Origin: a virus
Lineage: Duplodnaviria > Heunggongvirae > Uroviricota > Caudoviricetes
Strand: one strand, 5' to 3'
Virus record (IMG/VR): IMGVR_UViG_3300015155_000024
DNA length: 10,852 nt
Both the position numbers and the translations under genes were made by a program. A model generated the notes under the pieces. It was not told where the DNA came from. It saw nothing but the letters and a program-made list of their open reading frames with translations, and did not search any database. Each line of letters begins with the position of its first letter. Positions within the stretch are counted from its first letter, which is position 1. This document shows, one piece after another, positions 1,256 to 10,852 of this stretch.

Positions 1256-2137
1256 ATGCTTTTACCCCTTTTCCCGCTACCATCGCGGCCAACTGAATTA
1301 ATCCAGTTCCGTCAGCCAAATATTGCTGATGCGATGCGTTTCAACTCGATAACACCGGAGGAACAAGAACAGCAGACAACAGCGTATTTAAAAGCCTTGC
1401 TGGCTGAAGCTGCGAAACATGATCCACTGAAATGGACGGCACAGGACCGGATTACCGCGTTATGGTGGATATTTACTGGCTCCCGCGAAACACCGATCGA
1501 GACATTTACCTACACCTGTAAACATTGCGGTAAAGAGCATTATTACGATTGCGATATGAATGCTCTGGCTGAAGATATCCAGGTCCTGGAAGTGGAACCG
1601 TTCATTGACGATATTGAGGTGTCTGTAGAGGGCGTGCCTTATCAATGGCGTATCGTGCCGCTTGATGGTTGGGCAATGGAAATGCTGGAGATGCGCCGAG
1701 CAGCATTGCCACCTGAAGACGACGCGGAATTCAAAGAAGCGATCGTTGATTTGCGTTTTTGGGAATTCGCTTATCAGTGTGAACTTTATAATGATGTTAG
1801 CGGTACTCGTGAAGAGCAGGCTGAGCGTCGTTATGAAACGATCAAACGGATGGCCATTGATACTGAATTTATGAAGCTGGCGGCACACATCCGGCTGGCT
1901 CATGAAAAGCTCGAACATGGTTTACCGTGCTACATCGATAAAGGCGAAATGCGTCTTCGTCTCCCGCCGCACAAATGCCCAAACCAGGATACAAAGGAGT
2001 CCACAGAGGGTGCGTATACCCGTCTGTGGGTGCCCTTTCGGGCTACCGACTTCATTCCACAGGTGGGGATTGAAAAGCTATCAGACCTTAGTGTCCAACC
2101 TGGTTTTGTATGGGGGTATACCGATTCAGGACGCTGA
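1256..2137 (+). CDS. Putative tail assembly chaperone-position protein (293 aa) with Cys motifs
   Basis: AAGGAG SD at 1245-1250, ATG at 1256. Located between the putative tube gene and the TMP, where tail assembly chaperones (lambda G/GT equivalents) are encoded. Contains CKHCGKEH...DCD and a later HKCP motif. A +1-frame ORF (to 2207) overlaps its 3' end and ends 12 nt before the TMP start. Confidence 0.65.
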   Translation: MLLPLFPLPSRPTELIQFRQPNIADAMRFNSITPEEQEQQTTAYLKALLAEAAKHDPLKWTAQDRITALWWIFTGSRETPIETFTYTCKHCGKEHYYDCDMNALAEDIQVLEVEPFIDDIEVSVEGVPYQWRIVPLDGWAMEMLEMRRAALPPEDDAEFKEAIVDLRFWEFAYQCELYNDVSGTREEQAERRYETIKRMAIDTEFMKLAAHIRLAHEKLEHGLPCYIDKGEMRLRLPPHKCPNQDTKESTEGAYTRLWVPFRATDFIPQVGIEKLSDLSVQPGFVWGYTDSGR

Positions 2138-2218
2138 AAGGCTTACTGAATCCTATGCGTTTTTCCTGTTGGAGAAACTGGAAGAAAAACTTAAACCGAA
2201 ACGGTAGGCGATAAGATC

Positions 2219-5200
2219 ATGGAAAGAAAAAACGCCAATATTGACGATGTTATAAGGACAGTTGAAACCGCCAGCGCGAAAGAGCTGGAAGAGCTTGCAG
2301 GTATTCGGGAAGCTGTTGAAGATTTGAAAGGGGAACGAGTTGCAACTGTTGATCCTGTCTCTCGCAGTGTGTCGGCATTAAATCGCACAATCGAAAATTC
2401 ACGTCCTGACTTTGTGACCAATGTGCCATCAGTGGACTCTATTGTTGACGCAATGAAACGGCTTAATTTAGGGGACGTTTCTCGTATACGGGAGGACAAA
2501 GTCACTAACCGTGAACAGCAGGCTGCACCAACAGCGCACAATCCCCCAAATAGACGAAGAGAGGCAATAACAGAGGATGTTAAAGCACAGCGGTTAGAAA
2601 CGGTCAAACTCGCTCGTGATTTGAAAGGGGAACGCGTTGCAACGGTTGACCCAGTATCTCGCAGTGTGTCGGCATTAAATCGAACAATCGAAAATTCCCG
2701 GCCAGACTTTGTGGCCAATGCGCCATCAGTAGACCCTATTGTTGACGCAATGAAACGGCTTAATTTAGGGGACGTTTCTCGTGTAGTTCAGGAGGGCATT
2801 GCTCAACAGGAACAGCAGGCCAAATCAACTACACCAAAGGGTAAAAAAAGACGCAGGAAGGCTATATCAGAGGATATAAAGGCACAACGGACCGAAGCAG
2901 CCGAACACGCTCGCGAAATGTTCGATCAAAAAGGCGGTGCGCAAAAAAGCCAAAACCAACGCGATGCGCGTGGTCGTTTTATTGGAAAGTCAGGGAGTAA
3001 GGCCGCAGCGGAAGATGCCCGTGCTGAACGTGCTGAAAAGGCCAGGCGCAAAGAGGATGATGAGCGTCTAAATGCTGAATCAGGTTTATTAAAAAAACTG
3101 TCAAAAGTAGCTGAAGGCATAGGTAACCCTTCAGAGACTCGTGCCGTCGATGCGTTAGGTTATGCCGTTGCTGGTCCATTGTGGGCAGCAGGGAAGGAGC
3201 TTGGCGGGATATCAAAAGAAGTTGGTGGATCGCTTAATGGCGCCAGAAAGTCTATTGCCGATGTGATTCGTGGCAATGACGATAACAGCCGTAGAAAAGG
3301 TTTTTTTAGGCGTAAATCGCAAAATAGTGCCGATGTCGTTCAGGTTAACACCCAAAAACGGACGGTTCAGGAACTTCAGGAGCAGACCAGCGAAATTAAA
3401 GAGGGCAATGACAAGATTCTCAGCGCCCTTGATCAGATAGCCAAAAACACCGGGAAAAAGAAGGGCGGCTTGCTGTCCAAACTATTTAGCCTGTTAGGGA
3501 AGGGGGCCGGTGGCGTCGCGTCGTTGTTAATGGGGCGTGGCATGCTGAAAAAAGCTGGAGCACTCGCTTTTGGCGCTCTGGGGGCAAAGAAACTTGTAGG
3601 AATGCTACGCGGTGGTGGCAAGAAGACTATCGCCCATGAAGGTGGAGATTTGGCTGCCCGGGCAGCAGGTAAATTTGGATTAAAGGCAGTTGGTAAAGGG
3701 GCGTTACGCGCAATTCCCTTAGTCGGCACAGTGGCTGGAGGTATTTATGATGCGGTAACCGGTTGGAATGATACAGAAGCGCAACGTCGAGCGTTTGGGC
3801 TTAAATCAGGACAAGAGCCATCATTCCAGCAAAAAGCCGCTTATACGTTAGCCAATGTTCTTGATATGGGGGGACTGGTATCTGGTATTAGCAGCGCCAT
3901 TGGTGAGGTTCTCAAATCACTTGGATTTGAGGATATCGGCAATATGTTGCAATCATTTTCGACGGAAAGTATTGCCCAGGCCATTGATAGTGGGATTACC
4001 AACTTAGAAACATATATTTCTAACCTTGGCGACACCATTTCTACCAAGTTCGAAGATTACACAGCAAAGATTGGTGATGCTGTTTCAGCATGGTTTAGCG
4101 ATACATCTAATAAGCTGCTTGAAAAGCTGGATGCCATCAAAGACTTCTTTACTGTTGATAACCTGAAACAGGTTTTCAGTGATGCAATTGATAGTGCAAT
4201 TGATTTCATTAAGAACCCAGGGAAACACATTAAAGAGGCGGCTGGTAATATTTGGGATGGGGTTAAAAATTTACCTGGTAAAGCATTAGATGCAGCGGTT
4301 GATGCCGTTAAAAATACCCCTGCGGCAATGATTGTATCAAAAATACCCAATCCGATCGGCGAGGCTAATGCGAAAGAAATCACTCCGGAGTTAAAAGCTC
4401 CGGTTAATAGCCACCAGGAGACGTCTGATTCTAAAACTGAATCCGATGCCAAACAGAGTAATATTGCTACCCGCGTGATAAATGCGGCACTGGACACAGC
4501 GAAAGATAGCAATAAAACAGTTAAACAAACTGCCAATCAGATTATCAATGCAAATGCCGTAGAAACGGGCAATAGCGCGTTGCAGAAAATTGATAAAGCT
4601 ATTGGTCAAAATAGCTCGTCATCATCGTCGCTTAATACCACTGGCACCAGGAATGACATTCAGAAAGCTGCGGATACTTACAACAATGGCAAATTAGATG
4701 TAAAAGTCGGAAGTCTTGGCGCTGAAGGTAAGGCAAATCTCGATAAGTTGGCTCCGTATTTTGCCGAACTAGAGAATAAATACGGTCTTCCAGAAGGCAC
4801 TCTTTACGCGATTGCTGCAACTGAATCTGGTGGTAATCCGTATGCAAAATCCCAAACCGGTGCTCTGGGGATGTTTCAGTTCACGGGGATTGCTCGTGAA
4901 GAGACTGGCTTAGCTGAAGGTGAATCGTTTGATCCTGTGAAATCGGCAGAAGCTGCGGCTCTTCTCATGAGCAAGTATCTTAAGCAAGCCAATGGAGACT
5001 TAAACGAGGCCATCACTGCATATAATGCTGGGTTTGGCACTATTAATAAGTGGAAAAAAGGCACCGGTGACTTATCGAAAGAAAACCGTGAGTACGCGAT
5101 CAAGGTCAATACTCATCGTGCTCGCTATTTAGGTGGTGAAATCTATACACCTGGAGCAGGAGCACAGGGTGGGGCGCAATATGGAGTGAGGGGACCACTG

Positions 5201-5908
5201 CCTGATAACGCTGTTATCGATCAGTATACTGGCCTGGCGTTTACCCCTGGTGATAGCCCGTTTGAGAAAGGCGGTCTGGTCGACAAAATCGGCAATGCTG
5301 TTGGCGTTAACGATCTGGTCAACAAATTCATGAATGGCCGGGGGATGCGTCGGGAAGTCGTTCAGGGAACGCTAGAAGAACGTGCACGAGAGAAGGGGAC
5401 CGCAACAGCAGCTGGCAATGTGTATGTTGATACTCCGATGCCAGTTGAAGAGGCGCGTCCGGTGGCCAACAACTCAAGTTACTTTGACCATCTCGGCGCA
5501 CAAATGGGGATTGATGGACTATTCGATAAACTCCGCAACTCGCCGGGGATGCGGAAAAATAATGCGCCTGAACCAGCCTCCACGTCCCAGGTGACGACTG
5601 CCGCCAACGATTTGCAGCAACCAACCGGTCGTATGCAGATAGACGGGCAGGTTATTAGTGACCTTGGCGGTTCCGGTGCCAAGCCGACAATGCAGTTGGC
5701 TGATAATACCGTTTCACTTGATGGTGAAACGAAGCGGCTGTTTGCGCAGATGACCTCATTGCTTGCCAGGATTGAAGAGCACACCAAAGACTCGGCGAAA
5801 GGCCAGGGAACTGTCGTAAAGGTCAGCACGCCTCAGCCGGGCGTTATGCGCACGGTACCACTGTCAATTGATGATCCGTTGATGAATGACTACGCGAGAG
5901 TTGATTGA
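2219..5908 (+). CDS. Tail tape measure protein (1229 aa) with internal SLT-type lytic transglycosylase domain
   Basis: Very long ORF in the canonical position after tube and chaperone genes. N-terminal charged, helical, repeat-containing region; Gly/Ala-rich hydrophobic segment (about aa 415-520); a lytic transglycosylase motif set ATESGGNP ... GALGMFQF ... AYNAGFG around aa 855-945. Confidence 0.9.
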   Translation: MERKNANIDDVIRTVETASAKELEELAGIREAVEDLKGERVATVDPVSRSVSALNRTIENSRPDFVTNVPSVDSIVDAMKRLNLGDVSRIREDKVTNREQQAAPTAHNPPNRRREAITEDVKAQRLETVKLARDLKGERVATVDPVSRSVSALNRTIENSRPDFVANAPSVDPIVDAMKRLNLGDVSRVVQEGIAQQEQQAKSTTPKGKKRRRKAISEDIKAQRTEAAEHAREMFDQKGGAQKSQNQRDARGRFIGKSGSKAAAEDARAERAEKARRKEDDERLNAESGLLKKLSKVAEGIGNPSETRAVDALGYAVAGPLWAAGKELGGISKEVGGSLNGARKSIADVIRGNDDNSRRKGFFRRKSQNSADVVQVNTQKRTVQELQEQTSEIKEGNDKILSALDQIAKNTGKKKGGLLSKLFSLLGKGAGGVASLLMGRGMLKKAGALAFGALGAKKLVGMLRGGGKKTIAHEGGDLAARAAGKFGLKAVGKGALRAIPLVGTVAGGIYDAVTGWNDTEAQRRAFGLKSGQEPSFQQKAAYTLANVLDMGGLVSGISSAIGEVLKSLGFEDIGNMLQSFSTESIAQAIDSGITNLETYISNLGDTISTKFEDYTAKIGDAVSAWFSDTSNKLLEKLDAIKDFFTVDNLKQVFSDAIDSAIDFIKNPGKHIKEAAGNIWDGVKNLPGKALDAAVDAVKNTPAAMIVSKIPNPIGEANAKEITPELKAPVNSHQETSDSKTESDAKQSNIATRVINAALDTAKDSNKTVKQTANQIINANAVETGNSALQKIDKAIGQNSSSSSSLNTTGTRNDIQKAADTYNNGKLDVKVGSLGAEGKANLDKLAPYFAELENKYGLPEGTLYAIAATESGGNPYAKSQTGALGMFQFTGIAREETGLAEGESFDPVKSAEAAALLMSKYLKQANGDLNEAITAYNAGFGTINKWKKGTGDLSKENREYAIKVNTHRARYLGGEIYTPGAGAQGGAQYGVRGPLPDNAVIDQYTGLAFTPGDSPFEKGGLVDKIGNAVGVNDLVNKFMNGRGMRREVVQGTLEERAREKGTATAAGNVYVDTPMPVEEARPVANNSSYFDHLGAQMGIDGLFDKLRNSPGMRKNNAPEPASTSQVTTAANDLQQPTGRMQIDGQVISDLGGSGAKPTMQLADNTVSLDGETKRLFAQMTSLLARIEEHTKDSAKGQGTVVKVSTPQPGVMRTVPLSIDDPLMNDYARVD
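2324..2917 (+). repeat. Diverged in-frame tandem duplication (2 units of 297 nt, i.e. 99 aa) inside the TMP N-terminus
   Basis: Core 162-nt segments 2324-2485 and 2621-2782 align with 13 mismatches by eye (about 92% identity), including a 47-nt identical stretch (2439-2485 vs 2736-2782). Each core is followed by a diverged basic motif (RRREAITEDVKAQR / KKRRRKAISEDIKAQR). Confidence 0.85.
4781..5060 (+). other. SLT (lytic transglycosylase family 1) catalytic domain embedded in the TMP
   Basis: Motifs E-S (ATESGGNP; candidate catalytic Glu codon gaa at 4823-4825), GALGMFQF and AYNAGFG in the order and spacing typical of soluble lytic transglycosylase domains. Confidence 0.8.
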
Positions 5909-6264
5909 TGGCCAACAATAACGAAATTGATCCTTTGCTGACGCTGGAGTTATCCGGCGTAAAAACGTATGAGTCCCAGGAGGAGGCCTGGGGCGCTCGT
6001 TTATATGAGTGGCTAAACACTTATCAGGGTGAGGTATACGGAGATCCGTCATGGGGCAATGTTTTACCGCTGTTTAAACACGAACCGACCAACTTGTCGC
6101 ATGTTCAAATTGCGGTTGAGGCAATGCTGTTGCAAAAACTGACGGTAGATTTACCTGACATACCGATTTCTGGCTTGTCAGTAGCCGAGGGAGATGCTTT
6201 TGATAAGTTGAAAATATCCATTCGTATCAGGGATATAACTATCACACAGGACGTGGTGCTATGA
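5908..6264 (+). CDS. Small baseplate/tail-tip protein (118 aa), possibly gp25/gpW-like wedge protein
   Basis: ATG at 5908 overlaps the TMP stop TGA (5906-5908) by 1 nt; the ORF track start at 5905 is a TTG and probably not the real start. Size and position match P2 gpW/T4 gp25-like proteins; the motif TYQGEVYGDPSWGNVL weakly resembles the conserved gp25 motif. Family assignment is tentative. Confidence 0.65.
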   Translation: MANNNEIDPLLTLELSGVKTYESQEEAWGARLYEWLNTYQGEVYGDPSWGNVLPLFKHEPTNLSHVQIAVEAMLLQKLTVDLPDIPISGLSVAEGDAFDKLKISIRIRDITITQDVVL

Positions 6265-9054: not shown

Positions 9055-10852
9055 ATGAATGACGTTACAGTTGTTACATCGGTTACTTACCCATCACCCG
9101 AGTCGTTGGCTCTGGTGGCTGATGTGCAATACCACGAACCATATCTGTCAGCCGCTCTAAACCGAAAATTCAGGGGAATTGTTGACCCGGGATTTTATGC
9201 TGGTTTCTTGCCTAAGCCTGGCGGTGGGATGAACCTGTTAATCACCTCAGTGGATGGAGATAAAACCGCTGGCGCGGCGTCAGTGGATATTGGTGAATTC
9301 TACCAGGTAACTATTCAGCATCGTAAGGATATCTCTCTTGCACTTAACGCAGGCAAGAAATATGCAATTGTGCTGAAGGGAAGATACCTTCTTGGAGAAG
9401 ATACCTATCAGGTGAATACCGCGTCACATATTCATGCAGCTGAATTTGTTGCCAGAACCTATACCGATTCATATCAGTTAGGTGATGGGGAACTGCTGGT
9501 TTGTACGGTGAATATCCCTGCTGGCGTATCTACCATTACTCAAGAGATGATTGATACATCCGAGCGTATCAACCGCACGATCGGCATTGATATTTCAGAC
9601 TCTGTAACCAGTACCAGAAGTGATGTTGCTGCGAGTTCGCTGGCAGTTAAAAAAGCCTACGATCTGGCGAAAAGCAAGTATACGGCGCAGGATGCAAGCA
9701 CAACGCAAAAGGGATTAGTTCAGCTCAGTAGTGCCACTAACAGTACGTCCGAAGTGCTGGCCGCCACACCGAAAGCTGTCAAGGCTGCATATGACCTGGC
9801 TAACGGGAAGTATACAGCCCAGGATGCAACCACGACACAAAAAGGGATAGTTCAGCTCAGTAGCGACACCAACAGCACTTCTGAAACATTAGCTGCAACT
9901 CCAAAAGCGGTTAAAGCTGCATACGATCTAGCAGCCGGAAAGGCACCATCCAGTCATACACATCCCTGGAATCAGATCACTGGTGTGCCAACAGCTTCAT
10001 TGACAGCGAAAGGCATCACTCAGCTCAGTAGTGCCACTAACAGCACGTCTGAAGTGCTGGCCGCCACACCGAAAGCTGTCAAGTCTGTAAAAGATCTTGC
10101 TGATACCAAAGCGCCAATAGAAAGCCCGAGTCTGACAGGAACGCCAACCGCGCCGACGGCAGCGCAAGGTACAAACAGCACGCAGATCGCAAATACAGCC
10201 TTTGTTAAGGCAGCTATAACGGCACTTATCAACGGTGCACCTGGCACATTGGATACGCTGAAAGAAATAGCGGCTGCGATCAATAACGACCCGAATTTCA
10301 GCACAACTATCAACAATGCCTTGGCTCTCAAAGCGCCTTTGGCAAGCCCTGCATTAACGGGTGTCCCTACTGCGCCTACCGCTGCACAGGGTACGAATAA
10401 CACGCAGATTGCTACGACCGCTTATGTAAGAGCTGCCATATCCGCATTGGTTGGTTCATCACCAGAAGCTCTTGATACCCTGAATGAGCTTGCCGCAGCA
10501 CTTGGCAATGACCCGAACTTTGCGACAACAATGACAAATGCGCTGGCAGGCAAACAGCCTCTGGATGCAACTTTAACCGCTCTCGCTGCCCTTGCGACTG
10601 GTGCAAACAAACTGCCTTATTTCACTGGTAAGGATACGGTAGCTCAGACTGATTTAACGTCAGTCGGTCGCGATATTCTGGCTAAAACAAGCACACTGGC
10701 CGTTATCCAATACCTTGGTTTAAGAGAACTCGGTACCAGCGGTGAAAAGATCCCCCTGTTGAGCACGGCTAACACATGGAGTGCGCGCCAGACTTTCAAC
10801 GGAGGGATCACCGGGGCACTGACAGGGAACGCCGACACCGCGACGAAATTGA
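9055..10852 (+). CDS. Tail fiber protein, lambda Stf / P2 gpH family, 3'-truncated by the window end (at least 599 aa)
   Basis: ATG at 9055 preceded by AAGGA (9042-9046). I translated the frame by hand with no stop through 10852. Contains three copies of the hallmark fiber repeat xKGxxQLSSxTNSTSExLAATPKAVKxxxDLA, two collar-like units (KAP..SP.LTG.PTAPTAAQGTN.TQIA.TA.V.AAI ... L.TL.E.AAA..NDPNF) and the LTALA.LAT.ANKLPYFTG...VGRDILAK segment, all closely recalling lambda Stf. Not listed in the ORF track because it has no stop inside the window. Confidence 0.9.
   Translation, partial: MNDVTVVTSVTYPSPESLALVADVQYHEPYLSAALNRKFRGIVDPGFYAGFLPKPGGGMNLLITSVDGDKTAGAASVDIGEFYQVTIQHRKDISLALNAGKKYAIVLKGRYLLGEDTYQVNTASHIHAAEFVARTYTDSYQLGDGELLVCTVNIPAGVSTITQEMIDTSERINRTIGIDISDSVTSTRSDVAASSLAVKKAYDLAKSKYTAQDASTTQKGLVQLSSATNSTSEVLAATPKAVKAAYDLANGKYTAQDATTTQKGIVQLSSDTNSTSETLAATPKAVKAAYDLAAGKAPSSHTHPWNQITGVPTASLTAKGITQLSSATNSTSEVLAATPKAVKSVKDLADTKAPIESPSLTGTPTAPTAAQGTNSTQIANTAFVKAAITALINGAPGTLDTLKEIAAAINNDPNFSTTINNALALKAPLASPALTGVPTAPTAAQGTNNTQIATTAYVRAAISALVGSSPEALDTLNELAAALGNDPNFATTMTNALAGKQPLDATLTALAALATGANKLPYFTGKDTVAQTDLTSVGRDILAKTSTLAVIQYLGLRELGTSGEKIPLLSTANTWSARQTFNGGITGALTGNADTATKL
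9641..10110 (+). repeat. Three in-frame copies of the phage tail fiber repeat, with two near-identical 63-nt DNA copies
   Basis: Repeat cores start at 9721, about 9853 and 10021. Segments 9721-9783 and 10021-10083 differ at 2 of 63 positions and are exactly 300 nt apart; the middle copy is more diverged at the DNA level. Confidence 0.85.
10108..10560 (+). repeat. Two diverged 222-nt (74-aa) tandem units inside the tail fiber (collar-like repeats)
   Basis: Unit 1 begins KAPIESPSLTGTPTAPTAAQGTNSTQIANTAFVKAAI at 10108; unit 2 begins KAPLASPALTGVPTAPTAAQGTNNTQIATTAYVRAAI at 10330. Protein similarity is clear; DNA identity is only moderate, so the duplication is old. Confidence 0.8.

What the first reader, a model, noticed from the sequence alone, without database searches (positions are those of the whole stretch)
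2324..2917. In-frame 297-nt tandem duplication in the tape measure N-terminus, a possible tail-length variation switch
Two 99-aa units are repeated head to tail inside the TMP, with core segments about 92% identical and a 47-nt perfectly identical block (2439-2485 vs 2736-2782). TMP length sets tail length in long-tailed phages (established). Homologous recombination or replication slippage between the copies would delete or add exactly 99 aa in frame, changing predicted tail length by roughly 15 nm (at about 0.15 nm per residue) without destroying the protein. The repeats also carry conserved basic motifs (RRR/KKRRRK ... KAQR) of unknown role.
Basis: partly seen in the sequence, partly recalled or inferred. 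Interest (0 to 1): 0.55.

Follow-up and report, generated by a model that had tools for sequence, protein, structure and literature searches.

The report
Copy-number-variable repeat in P1 tape measure
The window comes from a phage P1-like plasmid-prophage whose tail "ruler" protein Sit carries two tandem copies of a 99-amino-acid unit where classical P1 has one. Related elements in nature carry one, two or three copies made by recombination between the copies, so tail length probably differs among them, although nobody has measured it.

Summary
The repeat is real. Two in-frame 297-nt units lie at 2321-2617 and 2618-2914.

The gene is sit of a P1-like phage-plasmid. Sit is P1's accepted but structurally unresolved tape measure protein.

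Classical P1, P7, RCS47 and SJ46 carry one unit. About 27% of 479 P1-like plasmids in PLSDB, and 198 of 470 sit-bearing complete E. coli genomes, carry at least two units. Seven plasmids and one phage record carry three, one of them as an intact 1338-aa Sit. No allele with zero or four units was seen.

Three-unit alleles have a hybrid middle unit (B-type head, A-type tail). One single-unit allele is the reciprocal hybrid. Two of these exchange points fall inside the 47-nt block. This is the signature of unequal homologous recombination.

It is not a "switch": the copies are diverged and the alleles are stable across isolates. The effect on tail length is inferred, at about +4-5 tube rings (15-19 nm) per unit, and untested.

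The kind is known (tandem repeats in tape measure proteins); this P1 case appears undescribed. A second 17-aa variable repeat (1-5 copies) also lies in sit.

The parts
2219..5908 (+). sit gene: tape measure / structural injection transglycosylase of a P1-like phage-plasmid, 1229 aa
   Evidence: ORF. It is 96% identical to P1 Sit apart from indels. The P1 record calls it 'putative structural injection transglycosylase; putative tail ruler'. PHROG phrog_2533 matches.
2219..2320 (+). Conserved N-terminal 34 aa (MERKNANIDDVI...) preceding the repeat
   Evidence: Identical in all alleles examined. Still recognisable in Sit homologues that are about 50% identical.
2321..2617 (+). Unit A, the extra 99-aa unit, absent from classical P1
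   Evidence: P1 Sit aligns with a 99-aa gap here. The A-type tail occurs in 137 of 479 PLSDB plasmids.
2618..2914 (+). Unit B, the 99-aa unit whose tail half is of the type found in the single unit of P1
   Evidence: The P1 unit's tail is 93% identical to the B tail and 63% to the A tail; its head is 93% identical to both.
2321..2485 (+). Conserved 'head' of unit A (55 codons; LKG..SRSV.A..IVDAMKRLNLG motif), under purifying selection
   Evidence: 92% nt identity to 2618-2782, with dN 0.025 and dS 0.28. The motif is conserved in distant homologues P0018 and P0019.
2618..2782 (+). Conserved 'head' of unit B
   Evidence: Same evidence as for the unit A head.
2439..2485 (+). 47-nt block identical to 2736-2782; encodes SIVDAMKRLNLGDVSR; mapped site of natural exchanges
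   Evidence: Exact identity confirmed. The exchange points of three-unit allele L004 and single-unit hybrid L077 fall between informative sites 117 and 165 of the unit, which is this block.
2736..2782 (+). Partner of the 47-nt identical block
2486..2617 (+). Divergent 'tail' of unit A (basic RRR cluster at 2552-2560, then a predicted helix)
   Evidence: About 64% nt identity to 2783-2914, with dN 0.45 and dS 0.87. The AlphaFold2 model shows coil followed by a helix, at low confidence.
2783..2914 (+). Divergent 'tail' of unit B (KKRRRK at 2843-2860)
4358..4408 (+). Single copy of a second in-frame variable repeat in sit (17 aa, GEANAKEITPELKAPVN); 1-5 copies in other alleles
   Evidence: 51-nt x3 array in L004. 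Two-unit Sit proteins have 1-5 copies and lengths of 1229 to 1307 aa.
4757..5086 (+). SLT lytic transglycosylase domain of Sit (aa 847-956)
   Evidence: Pfam PF01464, E = 2.3e-27.
1256..2137 (+). pmgB, immediately upstream; proposed tape measure chaperone
   Evidence: P1 annotation, PHROG phrog_1854, and the proposal in PMC9024508.

Best explanation
The feature is an in-frame tandem duplication of a 99-aa module near the N-terminus of Sit, the tape measure protein of a P1-like myovirus that is maintained as a plasmid prophage.

Each unit has two parts. The 55-codon head carries the motif ...SRSVSALNRTIENS...IVDAMKRLNLG. It is conserved and under purifying selection in both copies. The 44-codon tail is fast-evolving, holds a basic cluster and ends in a helix.

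The heads are similar enough for homologous recombination: 92% identity with a 47-nt exact block. Out-of-register pairing between sister or co-resident genomes adds or removes exactly one unit. That process has produced the 1-, 2- and 3-unit alleles seen in nature. This much is shown.

The next step is inferred. The N-terminal end of a tape measure protein lies at the head-proximal end of the tube, and tube polymerisation stops where the ruler ends. Each extra unit should therefore lengthen the tube and sheath by about 150-190 A, which is 4-5 rings of 40 A. P1 has 53 rings, so two-unit phages should have about 57-58 and three-unit phages about 61-63.

This is a slowly changing heritable polymorphism, not a programmed switch.
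For: Identity of the gene:
- The window is 97% identical to P1, P7 and RCS47 over the pmgC-tub-pmgB-sit-pmgA-bplA-16-R-S operon.
- Sit is in the virion and is taken as the TMP (PMC9024508). It is ejected on contraction, and the tail terminator's termini become disordered once it has left (PMC12810830).

Copy number:
- P1, P7, RCS47, SJ46 and JL22 carry one unit; phi456 and 673R5 carry two; 813R1 carries three.
- Of 479 PLSDB records, 137 carry an A-type tail, at 145 places. That gives about 342 one-unit, 130 two-unit and 7 three-unit records.
- Of 470 sit-bearing complete E. coli genomes, 198 carry an A-type tail, with at most two A tails per genome.
- Among the 80 IMG/VR loci plus the window and four annotated records, 84 sequences with a recognisable sit start were typed: 62 one-unit, 20 two-unit and 2 three-unit, none with zero.

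Functionality:
- The three-unit allele in NZ_CP068934 is an intact 1338-aa CDS.
- The two-unit phage phi456 forms plaques and myovirus particles and has an intact sit CDS.
- Head dN/dS is about 0.09, so both copies are constrained.

Recombination:
- The middle units of three-unit alleles have a B-type head and an A-type tail, with different switch points: L003 between unit sites 103 and 113, L004 between 117 and 165.
- L077 is a single unit with an A-type head and a B-type tail, switching between sites 117 and 165. Other single-unit alleles switch at 38-65, 65-80 or 80-83.
- Copy number does not follow flank relatedness. Multi-unit alleles have single-unit neighbours at 0-0.5% flank divergence.

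Ruler plausibility:
- The P1 tube has 53 rings of 40 A (PMC10304247).
- The N-terminal region is predicted to be non-globular, with short helices and coil.
- Engineered changes in TMP length change tail length in lambda and in T4, the latter a myovirus (cited in PMC13585406; PMC3271669).
Against: - No tail length or ring count has been measured for any two- or three-unit phage.
- Sit is unresolved in the P1 cryo-EM maps, so the position and conformation of its N-terminus are inferred.
- 1140 aa for about 2100-2200 A is 1.9 A per residue, more than an alpha-helix gives. The simple ruler arithmetic therefore does not hold strictly for P1.
- The unit contains prolines and a strongly conserved motif. 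That pattern suggests a binding module rather than inert ruler material.
- The structure prediction is of low confidence (pLDDT 45).
- The direction of change (duplication versus deletion) for the common alleles cannot be resolved. Recombination with single-unit alleles could also produce the block pattern.
Confidence: 0.6

Rival explanations
1. Length-neutral module duplication. The 99-aa unit is a binding or anchoring module, for example for the tail terminator gp24, the chaperone PmgB, the acidic tube lumen or the DNA end. It would sit compacted or disordered at the top of the tube or in the neck. An extra copy would then be tolerated, or would change assembly or ejection kinetics, without changing the number of tube rings.
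For: - The head motif IVxAMKxLNLG survives in homologues that are only about 50% identical, while the rest of the unit does not.
- Both heads are under strong purifying selection.
- At least one unit is always present.
- The unit is proline-containing and predicted to be about half coil.
- The terminator's termini are ordered only while the TMP is present, and the tube lumen is acidic while the unit carries basic clusters.
Against: - In every tape measure tested experimentally (lambda H, T4 gp29, TP901-1; established knowledge, cited), in-frame additions lengthen the tail.
- P1's Sit already has too few residues for its tube if it were helical. Extended N-terminal coil is therefore likely to count towards length.
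- Two-unit alleles carry further expansions at the 17-aa repeat and no compensating deletions.
Confidence: 0.3
2. Programmed high-frequency switch. The repeat would act as a contingency locus that flips between copy numbers within a single lysate or lineage, giving mixed tail lengths.
For: - There is a 47-nt exact block, above the roughly 25-bp minimum for RecA pairing in E. coli (established knowledge, not tested here).
- Natural exchange products map to that block.
- P1 encodes recombination functions such as Ref. This is recalled from memory and was not tested here.
Against: - The copies are only 79% identical overall.
- A-type tails are >=99% identical in 131 of 137 plasmids, and alleles are stable across many isolates.
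- Three-unit alleles are about 1.5% of plasmids, and none has four units.
- No dedicated recombinase site lies in or beside the repeat; the Cin/cix system sits 7.7 kb away in gene S.
Confidence: 0.05
3. Assembly or annotation artefact: a collapsed or expanded repeat created by the assembler.
For: One three-unit record, 813R1, is a frameshift-ridden assembly.
Against: - The same two-unit array occurs in about 130 closed plasmids, 198 complete E. coli genomes and 19 IMG/VR contigs from independent projects.
- The two units differ at 63 sites, so they cannot be confused by an assembler.
Confidence: 0.01

Closest known systems
Sit of bacteriophage P1 (YP_006507, 1140 aa), the tape measure / structural injection transglycosylase
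   Same: Same gene at the same position in the same operon, about 96-98% identical outside the indels. It has the same N-terminal 34 aa, a unit with the same B-type tail, the glycine-rich hydrophobic middle and the SLT domain.
   Different: The window protein has one extra 99-aa unit (type A) after residue 34. It also lacks a 10-aa insertion in the SLT domain.
Tandem-repeat 'units' in tape measure proteins of mycobacteriophages (Belcaid et al. 2011, PMC3271669)
   Same: In-frame tandem units within a TMP, whose number varies among related phages through duplication and loss.
   Different: Those units are 11 aa and found in siphoviruses. Here the unit is 99 aa with a conserved motif plus a variable linker, and the phage is a myovirus. 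Tandem repeats are reported to be uncommon in myovirus TMPs (PMC13585406). There is no sequence relationship: the unit profile finds only 4 cluster representatives among 1.84 billion, all of them P1-like Sit.
Engineered deletions and duplications in lambda gpH and T4 gp29 (Katsura & Hendrix 1984; Abuladze et al. 1994)
   Same: In-frame change of ruler length. For T4 it was done in a contractile-tailed phage and gave proportionally shorter or longer tails (cited).
   Different: Those were laboratory constructs. The P1-like alleles are natural, common (about 27-42% of elements) and generated by recombination between diverged copies. The phenotype has not been measured here.

Membership tests
Phage tail tape measure protein | Gene lies in the tail module, after the tube/chaperone genes and before the baseplate genes | tested here: met
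   The order is pmgC-tub-pmgB-sit-pmgA-bplA-16. BplA matches Baseplate_J and gp6-like Pfam families.
Phage tail tape measure protein | Long, non-globular, helix-rich protein with glycine-rich hydrophobic segments, often with a peptidoglycan hydrolase domain | tested here: met
   1229 aa with an SLT domain at aa 847-956. The N-terminal 394 aa are predicted as helices and coil without a fold. Gly-rich segments are visible in the translation.
Phage tail tape measure protein | Present in the virion inside the tube and ejected at infection | not testable with these tools
   Literature only. Sit was detected by LC-MS/MS of virions. Low-resolution density is seen in the baseplate, and Sit is lost on contraction.
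Phage tail tape measure protein | Protein length sets tail length | not testable with these tools
   No mutant or natural-variant measurements exist for P1. 1140 aa against 53 rings x 40 A gives about 1.9 A per residue, which is only roughly consistent.
Copy-number-variable tandem repeat within a tape measure gene | In-frame head-to-tail units | tested here: met
   297-nt period, no stop codons, same frame.
Copy-number-variable tandem repeat within a tape measure gene | Different unit numbers in otherwise near-identical relatives | tested here: met
   1, 2 and 3 units occur, with flanks differing by 0-0.5%.
Copy-number-variable tandem repeat within a tape measure gene | Hybrid units marking unequal exchange | tested here: met
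   L003 and L004 middle units, and the L077 single unit.
Contingency locus / phase-variation switch | Near-identical repeats or a dedicated site-specific recombinase giving high-frequency reversible change | tested here: not met
   79% identity with at most 47 nt exact. No cix-like site is annotated near the array. Alleles are stable across isolates.
Contingency locus / phase-variation switch | Length heterogeneity within one population or lysate | not testable with these tools
   This needs deep amplicon sequencing of lysates.

The most novel reading that the evidence does not exclude
P1-like phage-plasmids may carry a heritable tail-length polymorphism encoded by two independent variable repeats in the ruler gene: the 99-aa unit at 1-3 copies and the 17-aa unit at 1-5 copies. 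Sit would then range from about 1124 to at least 1338 aa, and predicted tails from about 53 to about 62 rings. The polymorphism would be kept at intermediate frequency because tail length matters for reaching the membrane through different O-antigen or capsule layers. Tail length would then be an evolvable host-range trait in a classical model phage.
Probability: 0.2. Interest if true: 0.6.

Novelty: new member of a known kind. Interest (0 to 1): 0.4.

Why it matters
P1 is a genetic workhorse whose tail has been counted ring by ring (53 rings), but whose tape measure protein is invisible in the maps. Natural alleles with one, two and three copies of a defined 99-aa unit, plus a 17-aa repeat with 1-5 copies, offer a ready-made allelic series. 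With it one could test the ruler mechanism in a very long contractile tail, calibrate angstroms per residue for a partly non-helical ruler, and ask whether the N-terminal motif is a stop signal or just length.

It also matters for annotation. The reference P1 Sit (1140 aa) and the PHROG profile (1130 positions) represent only the one-unit form, while 27-42% of P1-like elements in E. coli carry the longer one. If tail length has no effect on fitness, this is simply a common neutral indel in a well-known gene.

Tried and rejected
- The first homologue search, with aa 1-394, returned mostly truncated proteins. It was useful only for two distant homologues.
- A profile of the two units searched against 1.84 billion cluster representatives found nothing outside P1-like Sit. 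No wider family or function could be borrowed.
- The PDB sequence search of aa 1-394 gave only a chance hit, E = 0.16. Pfam finds only the SLT domain.
- The AlphaFold2 model of aa 1-394 has pLDDT 45 and pTM 0.17. I did not run fold searches on it, because a model of that quality gives meaningless matches.
- Literature searches for tail measurements of two-unit phages found none. The phi456 paper reports morphology only; 673R5 and 813R1 are cited in a bioRxiv preprint on phages located in carbapenemase-producing E. coli clinical isolates, which I did not open.
- Searches for any earlier description of the sit repeat found nothing.
- I tried to decide whether the single-unit state of P1 is ancestral or a deletion derivative. 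Single-unit heads are 5' A-like and 3' B-like blocks (runs test P about 0.05). That fits deletion, but it is equally explained by recombination homogenising the outer halves of the array. I left the question open.
- The antisense ORF 2191-2718 was considered and set aside, untested, as a by-product of the in-frame repeat.

Full report
**What the window is.** The 10.9-kb window is 97% identical over 96% of its length to phages P1, P7, RCS47 and JL22 and to many P1-like plasmids. Its ORFs are the P1 late operon pmgC-tub-pmgB-sit-pmgA-bplA-16-R-S. The ORF that holds the finding, 2219-5908 (1229 aa), is sit. The P1 record annotates sit as 'putative structural injection transglycosylase; putative tail ruler', and the protein carries an SLT domain at aa 847-956. 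The P1 virion proteome paper assigns Sit as the tape measure protein (PMC9024508). The P1 cryo-EM paper treats it the same way but could not resolve it (PMC12810830).

**The observation.** Tandem Repeats Finder reports a 297-nt period at 2321-2890 with score 777, and the repeat finder gives a matching pair. In register, 2321-2617 (unit A) and 2618-2914 (unit B) share 234/297 nt and 71/99 aa.

The unit has two parts. The first 165 nt, the 'head', are 92% identical (52/55 aa). The last 132 nt, the 'tail', are about 64% identical.

**Is copy number variable?** Yes.
- Classical P1 Sit (1140 aa) aligns with a clean 99-aa gap after residue 34, and the tail half of its single unit is B-type.
- In the phage collection, P1, P7, RCS47, SJ46, JL22 and Ro157c2YLVW have one unit. 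phi456 and 673R5 have two. 813R1 has three.
- In PLSDB, 479 plasmids carry the sit N-terminus. A probe specific for the A-type tail hits 137 of them at 145 places, and a three-unit probe finds seven records with an uninterrupted three-unit match. That gives roughly 342 one-unit, 130 two-unit and 7 three-unit plasmids. The evenly spaced sample agrees.
- Among 5,426 complete E. coli genomes, 470 have sit and 198 have an A-type tail, never more than two per genome.
They comprise 62 one-unit, 20 two-unit and 2 three-unit alleles, with none lacking the unit.
- The three-unit allele of NZ_CP068934 is an intact 1338-aa CDS, which is 1140 + 2 x 99. The three-unit allele of NZ_CP060921 is interrupted further downstream.
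- The two-unit phage phi456 has an intact sit CDS. It forms plaques and myovirus particles (PMC10967188).

- Three-unit alleles are A - (B-head/A-tail) - B. This is the product expected when unit B of one two-unit molecule pairs with unit A of another and an exchange occurs in the head.
- The switch point differs between the two alleles: between unit sites 103 and 113 in L003, and between 117 and 165 in L004. These are therefore independent events. The L004 interval is the 47-nt identical block.
- L077 is a single unit whose head matches a common A-type head through site 117 and then continues as B. It is the reciprocal deletion product, and its exchange also lies in the 47-nt block.
- Other single-unit alleles change from A-like to B-like state at 38-65, 65-80 (the majority, including P1) or 80-83. 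Several two-unit alleles have B-like patches in the 5' part of unit A, which indicates gene conversion.
- Copy number does not follow the flanks. Multi-unit alleles differ from one another by up to 3% in the 1.1 kb upstream, yet they have single-unit neighbours at 0-0.5%.
- I could not decide whether P1's single unit is ancestral or a deletion derivative. Distant Sit homologues (about 50% identical) have one unit. However, the block pattern in P1-type heads fits either deletion or homogenisation by recombination.

**What the unit is.** Both heads are under purifying selection (dN 0.025, dS 0.28). The tails are much more diverged (dN 0.45, dS 0.87), although the 1.5 kb downstream is 98.4% identical between the window and P1. 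The duplication is therefore old relative to the backbone, or the tails evolve fast, and the extra copy is not decaying.

The motif LKG...PR(S/T)V.A...I(V/A)xAMK(K/R)LNLG is what survives in the distant homologues, followed by a variable linker with a basic cluster. A profile of the two units finds only four cluster representatives among 1.84 billion, all of them P1-like Sit. Pfam, PHROGs and PDB add nothing beyond the Sit families themselves; the PHROG profile is the one-unit form.

AlphaFold2 gives no fold for aa 1-394 (pLDDT 45). It predicts short helices separated by long coil, roughly half and half within each unit. That is what one expects of a ruler segment outside its tube, but the prediction is weak.

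**Likely consequence.** P1's tube and sheath have 53 rings of 40 A, about 2100 A in all (PMC10304247). With 1140 residues this is about 1.9 A per residue, more than an alpha-helix provides. Part of Sit must therefore be extended.

By analogy with lambda and T4 (established knowledge), the N-terminus of a tape measure lies at the head-proximal end. This is consistent with the P1 terminator's termini being ordered only while Sit is present. At 1.5-1.9 A per residue, one unit adds 150-190 A, or 4-5 rings. Two-unit phages would have about 57-58 rings and three-unit phages about 61-63.

That in-frame additions lengthen tails is established for lambda gpH and for T4 gp29, the latter a myovirus (cited). 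It has not been shown for P1, and no measurement exists for any two-unit phage.

The main rival is that the unit is a binding module whose duplication leaves ring number unchanged. The conserved motif and the constant presence of at least one unit speak for that rival. I put the tail-length step at about 0.6.

**Why it is not a switch.** The copies are 79% identical, with a single 47-nt exact stretch. A-type tails are >=99% identical in 131 of 137 plasmids. Three-unit alleles are about 1.5% of plasmids, and none has four units. No site-specific recombination site is annotated nearby. The pattern is that of an evolutionary polymorphism changed by occasional homologous exchange.

**Comparison with what is known.** Tandem units of variable number in tape measure genes are described for mycobacteriophage siphoviruses, where the units are 11 aa (PMC3271669). 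A 2026 survey lists tandem repeats as contributors to TMP length and notes that they are uncommon in myovirus TMPs (PMC13585406). The P1 case is the same kind of thing, with a much larger, motif-bearing unit in a myovirus. I found no paper that mentions it. I classify it as a new member of a known kind.

**In passing.** The full-length homologue search showed that two-unit Sit proteins come in lengths of 1224 to 1307 aa. The main cause is a second in-frame repeat of 17 aa, (G/S)EANAKEI(T/A)PELKAPVN. It is present once in the window (4358-4408) and 1-5 times elsewhere. Extra 99-aa units are thus accompanied by further expansions rather than compensating deletions. Sit length as a whole is polymorphic in natural P1-like elements.

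Noticed in passing
window 4358-4408 (Sit aa 714-730); L004 7056-7210: A second in-frame variable tandem repeat lies in sit. The 51-nt / 17-aa unit (G/S)EANAKEI(T/A)PELKAPVN is single-copy in the window and present in 1-5 nearly identical copies in other alleles. It gives two-unit Sit lengths of 1229, 1246, 1256, 1273, 1280, 1297 and 1307 aa. It is proline-rich and lies between the helical region and the SLT domain. Because its copies are nearly identical, it is a better candidate for frequent slippage than the 297-nt repeat.
   Followed up: partly
window about 4852-4853 (between Sit aa 878 and 879): Relative to P1, the window's Sit lacks a 10-aa segment (TLTRSPNGKL) inside the SLT domain, and the neighbouring residues differ. 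The indel is not linked to unit number: the three-unit L003 allele has a length equal to P1's plus two units.
   Followed up: no
window 9655-10086: There are three diverged 132-nt direct repeats (75% and 64% identity) in the constant part of tail-fibre gene S. The P1 record annotates repeated elements a0, a1, b1 and b2 in this region.
   Followed up: partly
window 1902-2207: A 101-codon ORF in the +1 frame overlaps the 3' end of pmgB and ends 12 nt before sit. Its last 117 nt are annotated as a hypothetical protein in phi456. PmgB is proposed to be the tape measure chaperone, and such chaperone genes often use programmed frameshifts. I did not test for a slippery site or for conservation of the alternative frame.
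   Followed up: no
L004 4620-8707 (NZ_CP060921) and L023, L047: Several P1-like elements have sit broken by frameshifts or stop codons. In L004 it is split at about 6137-6167; L023 has a frameshift in unit B; L047 has an in-frame stop. These are probably defective prophage-plasmids or sequencing errors.
   Followed up: no
window 10020-10852: The window ends in the region corresponding to cixR and the start of the Cin-invertible C segment of P1 (hits to D6 cixR). The only dedicated DNA-rearrangement system in the window is therefore in the tail-fibre gene, not in sit.
   Followed up: no
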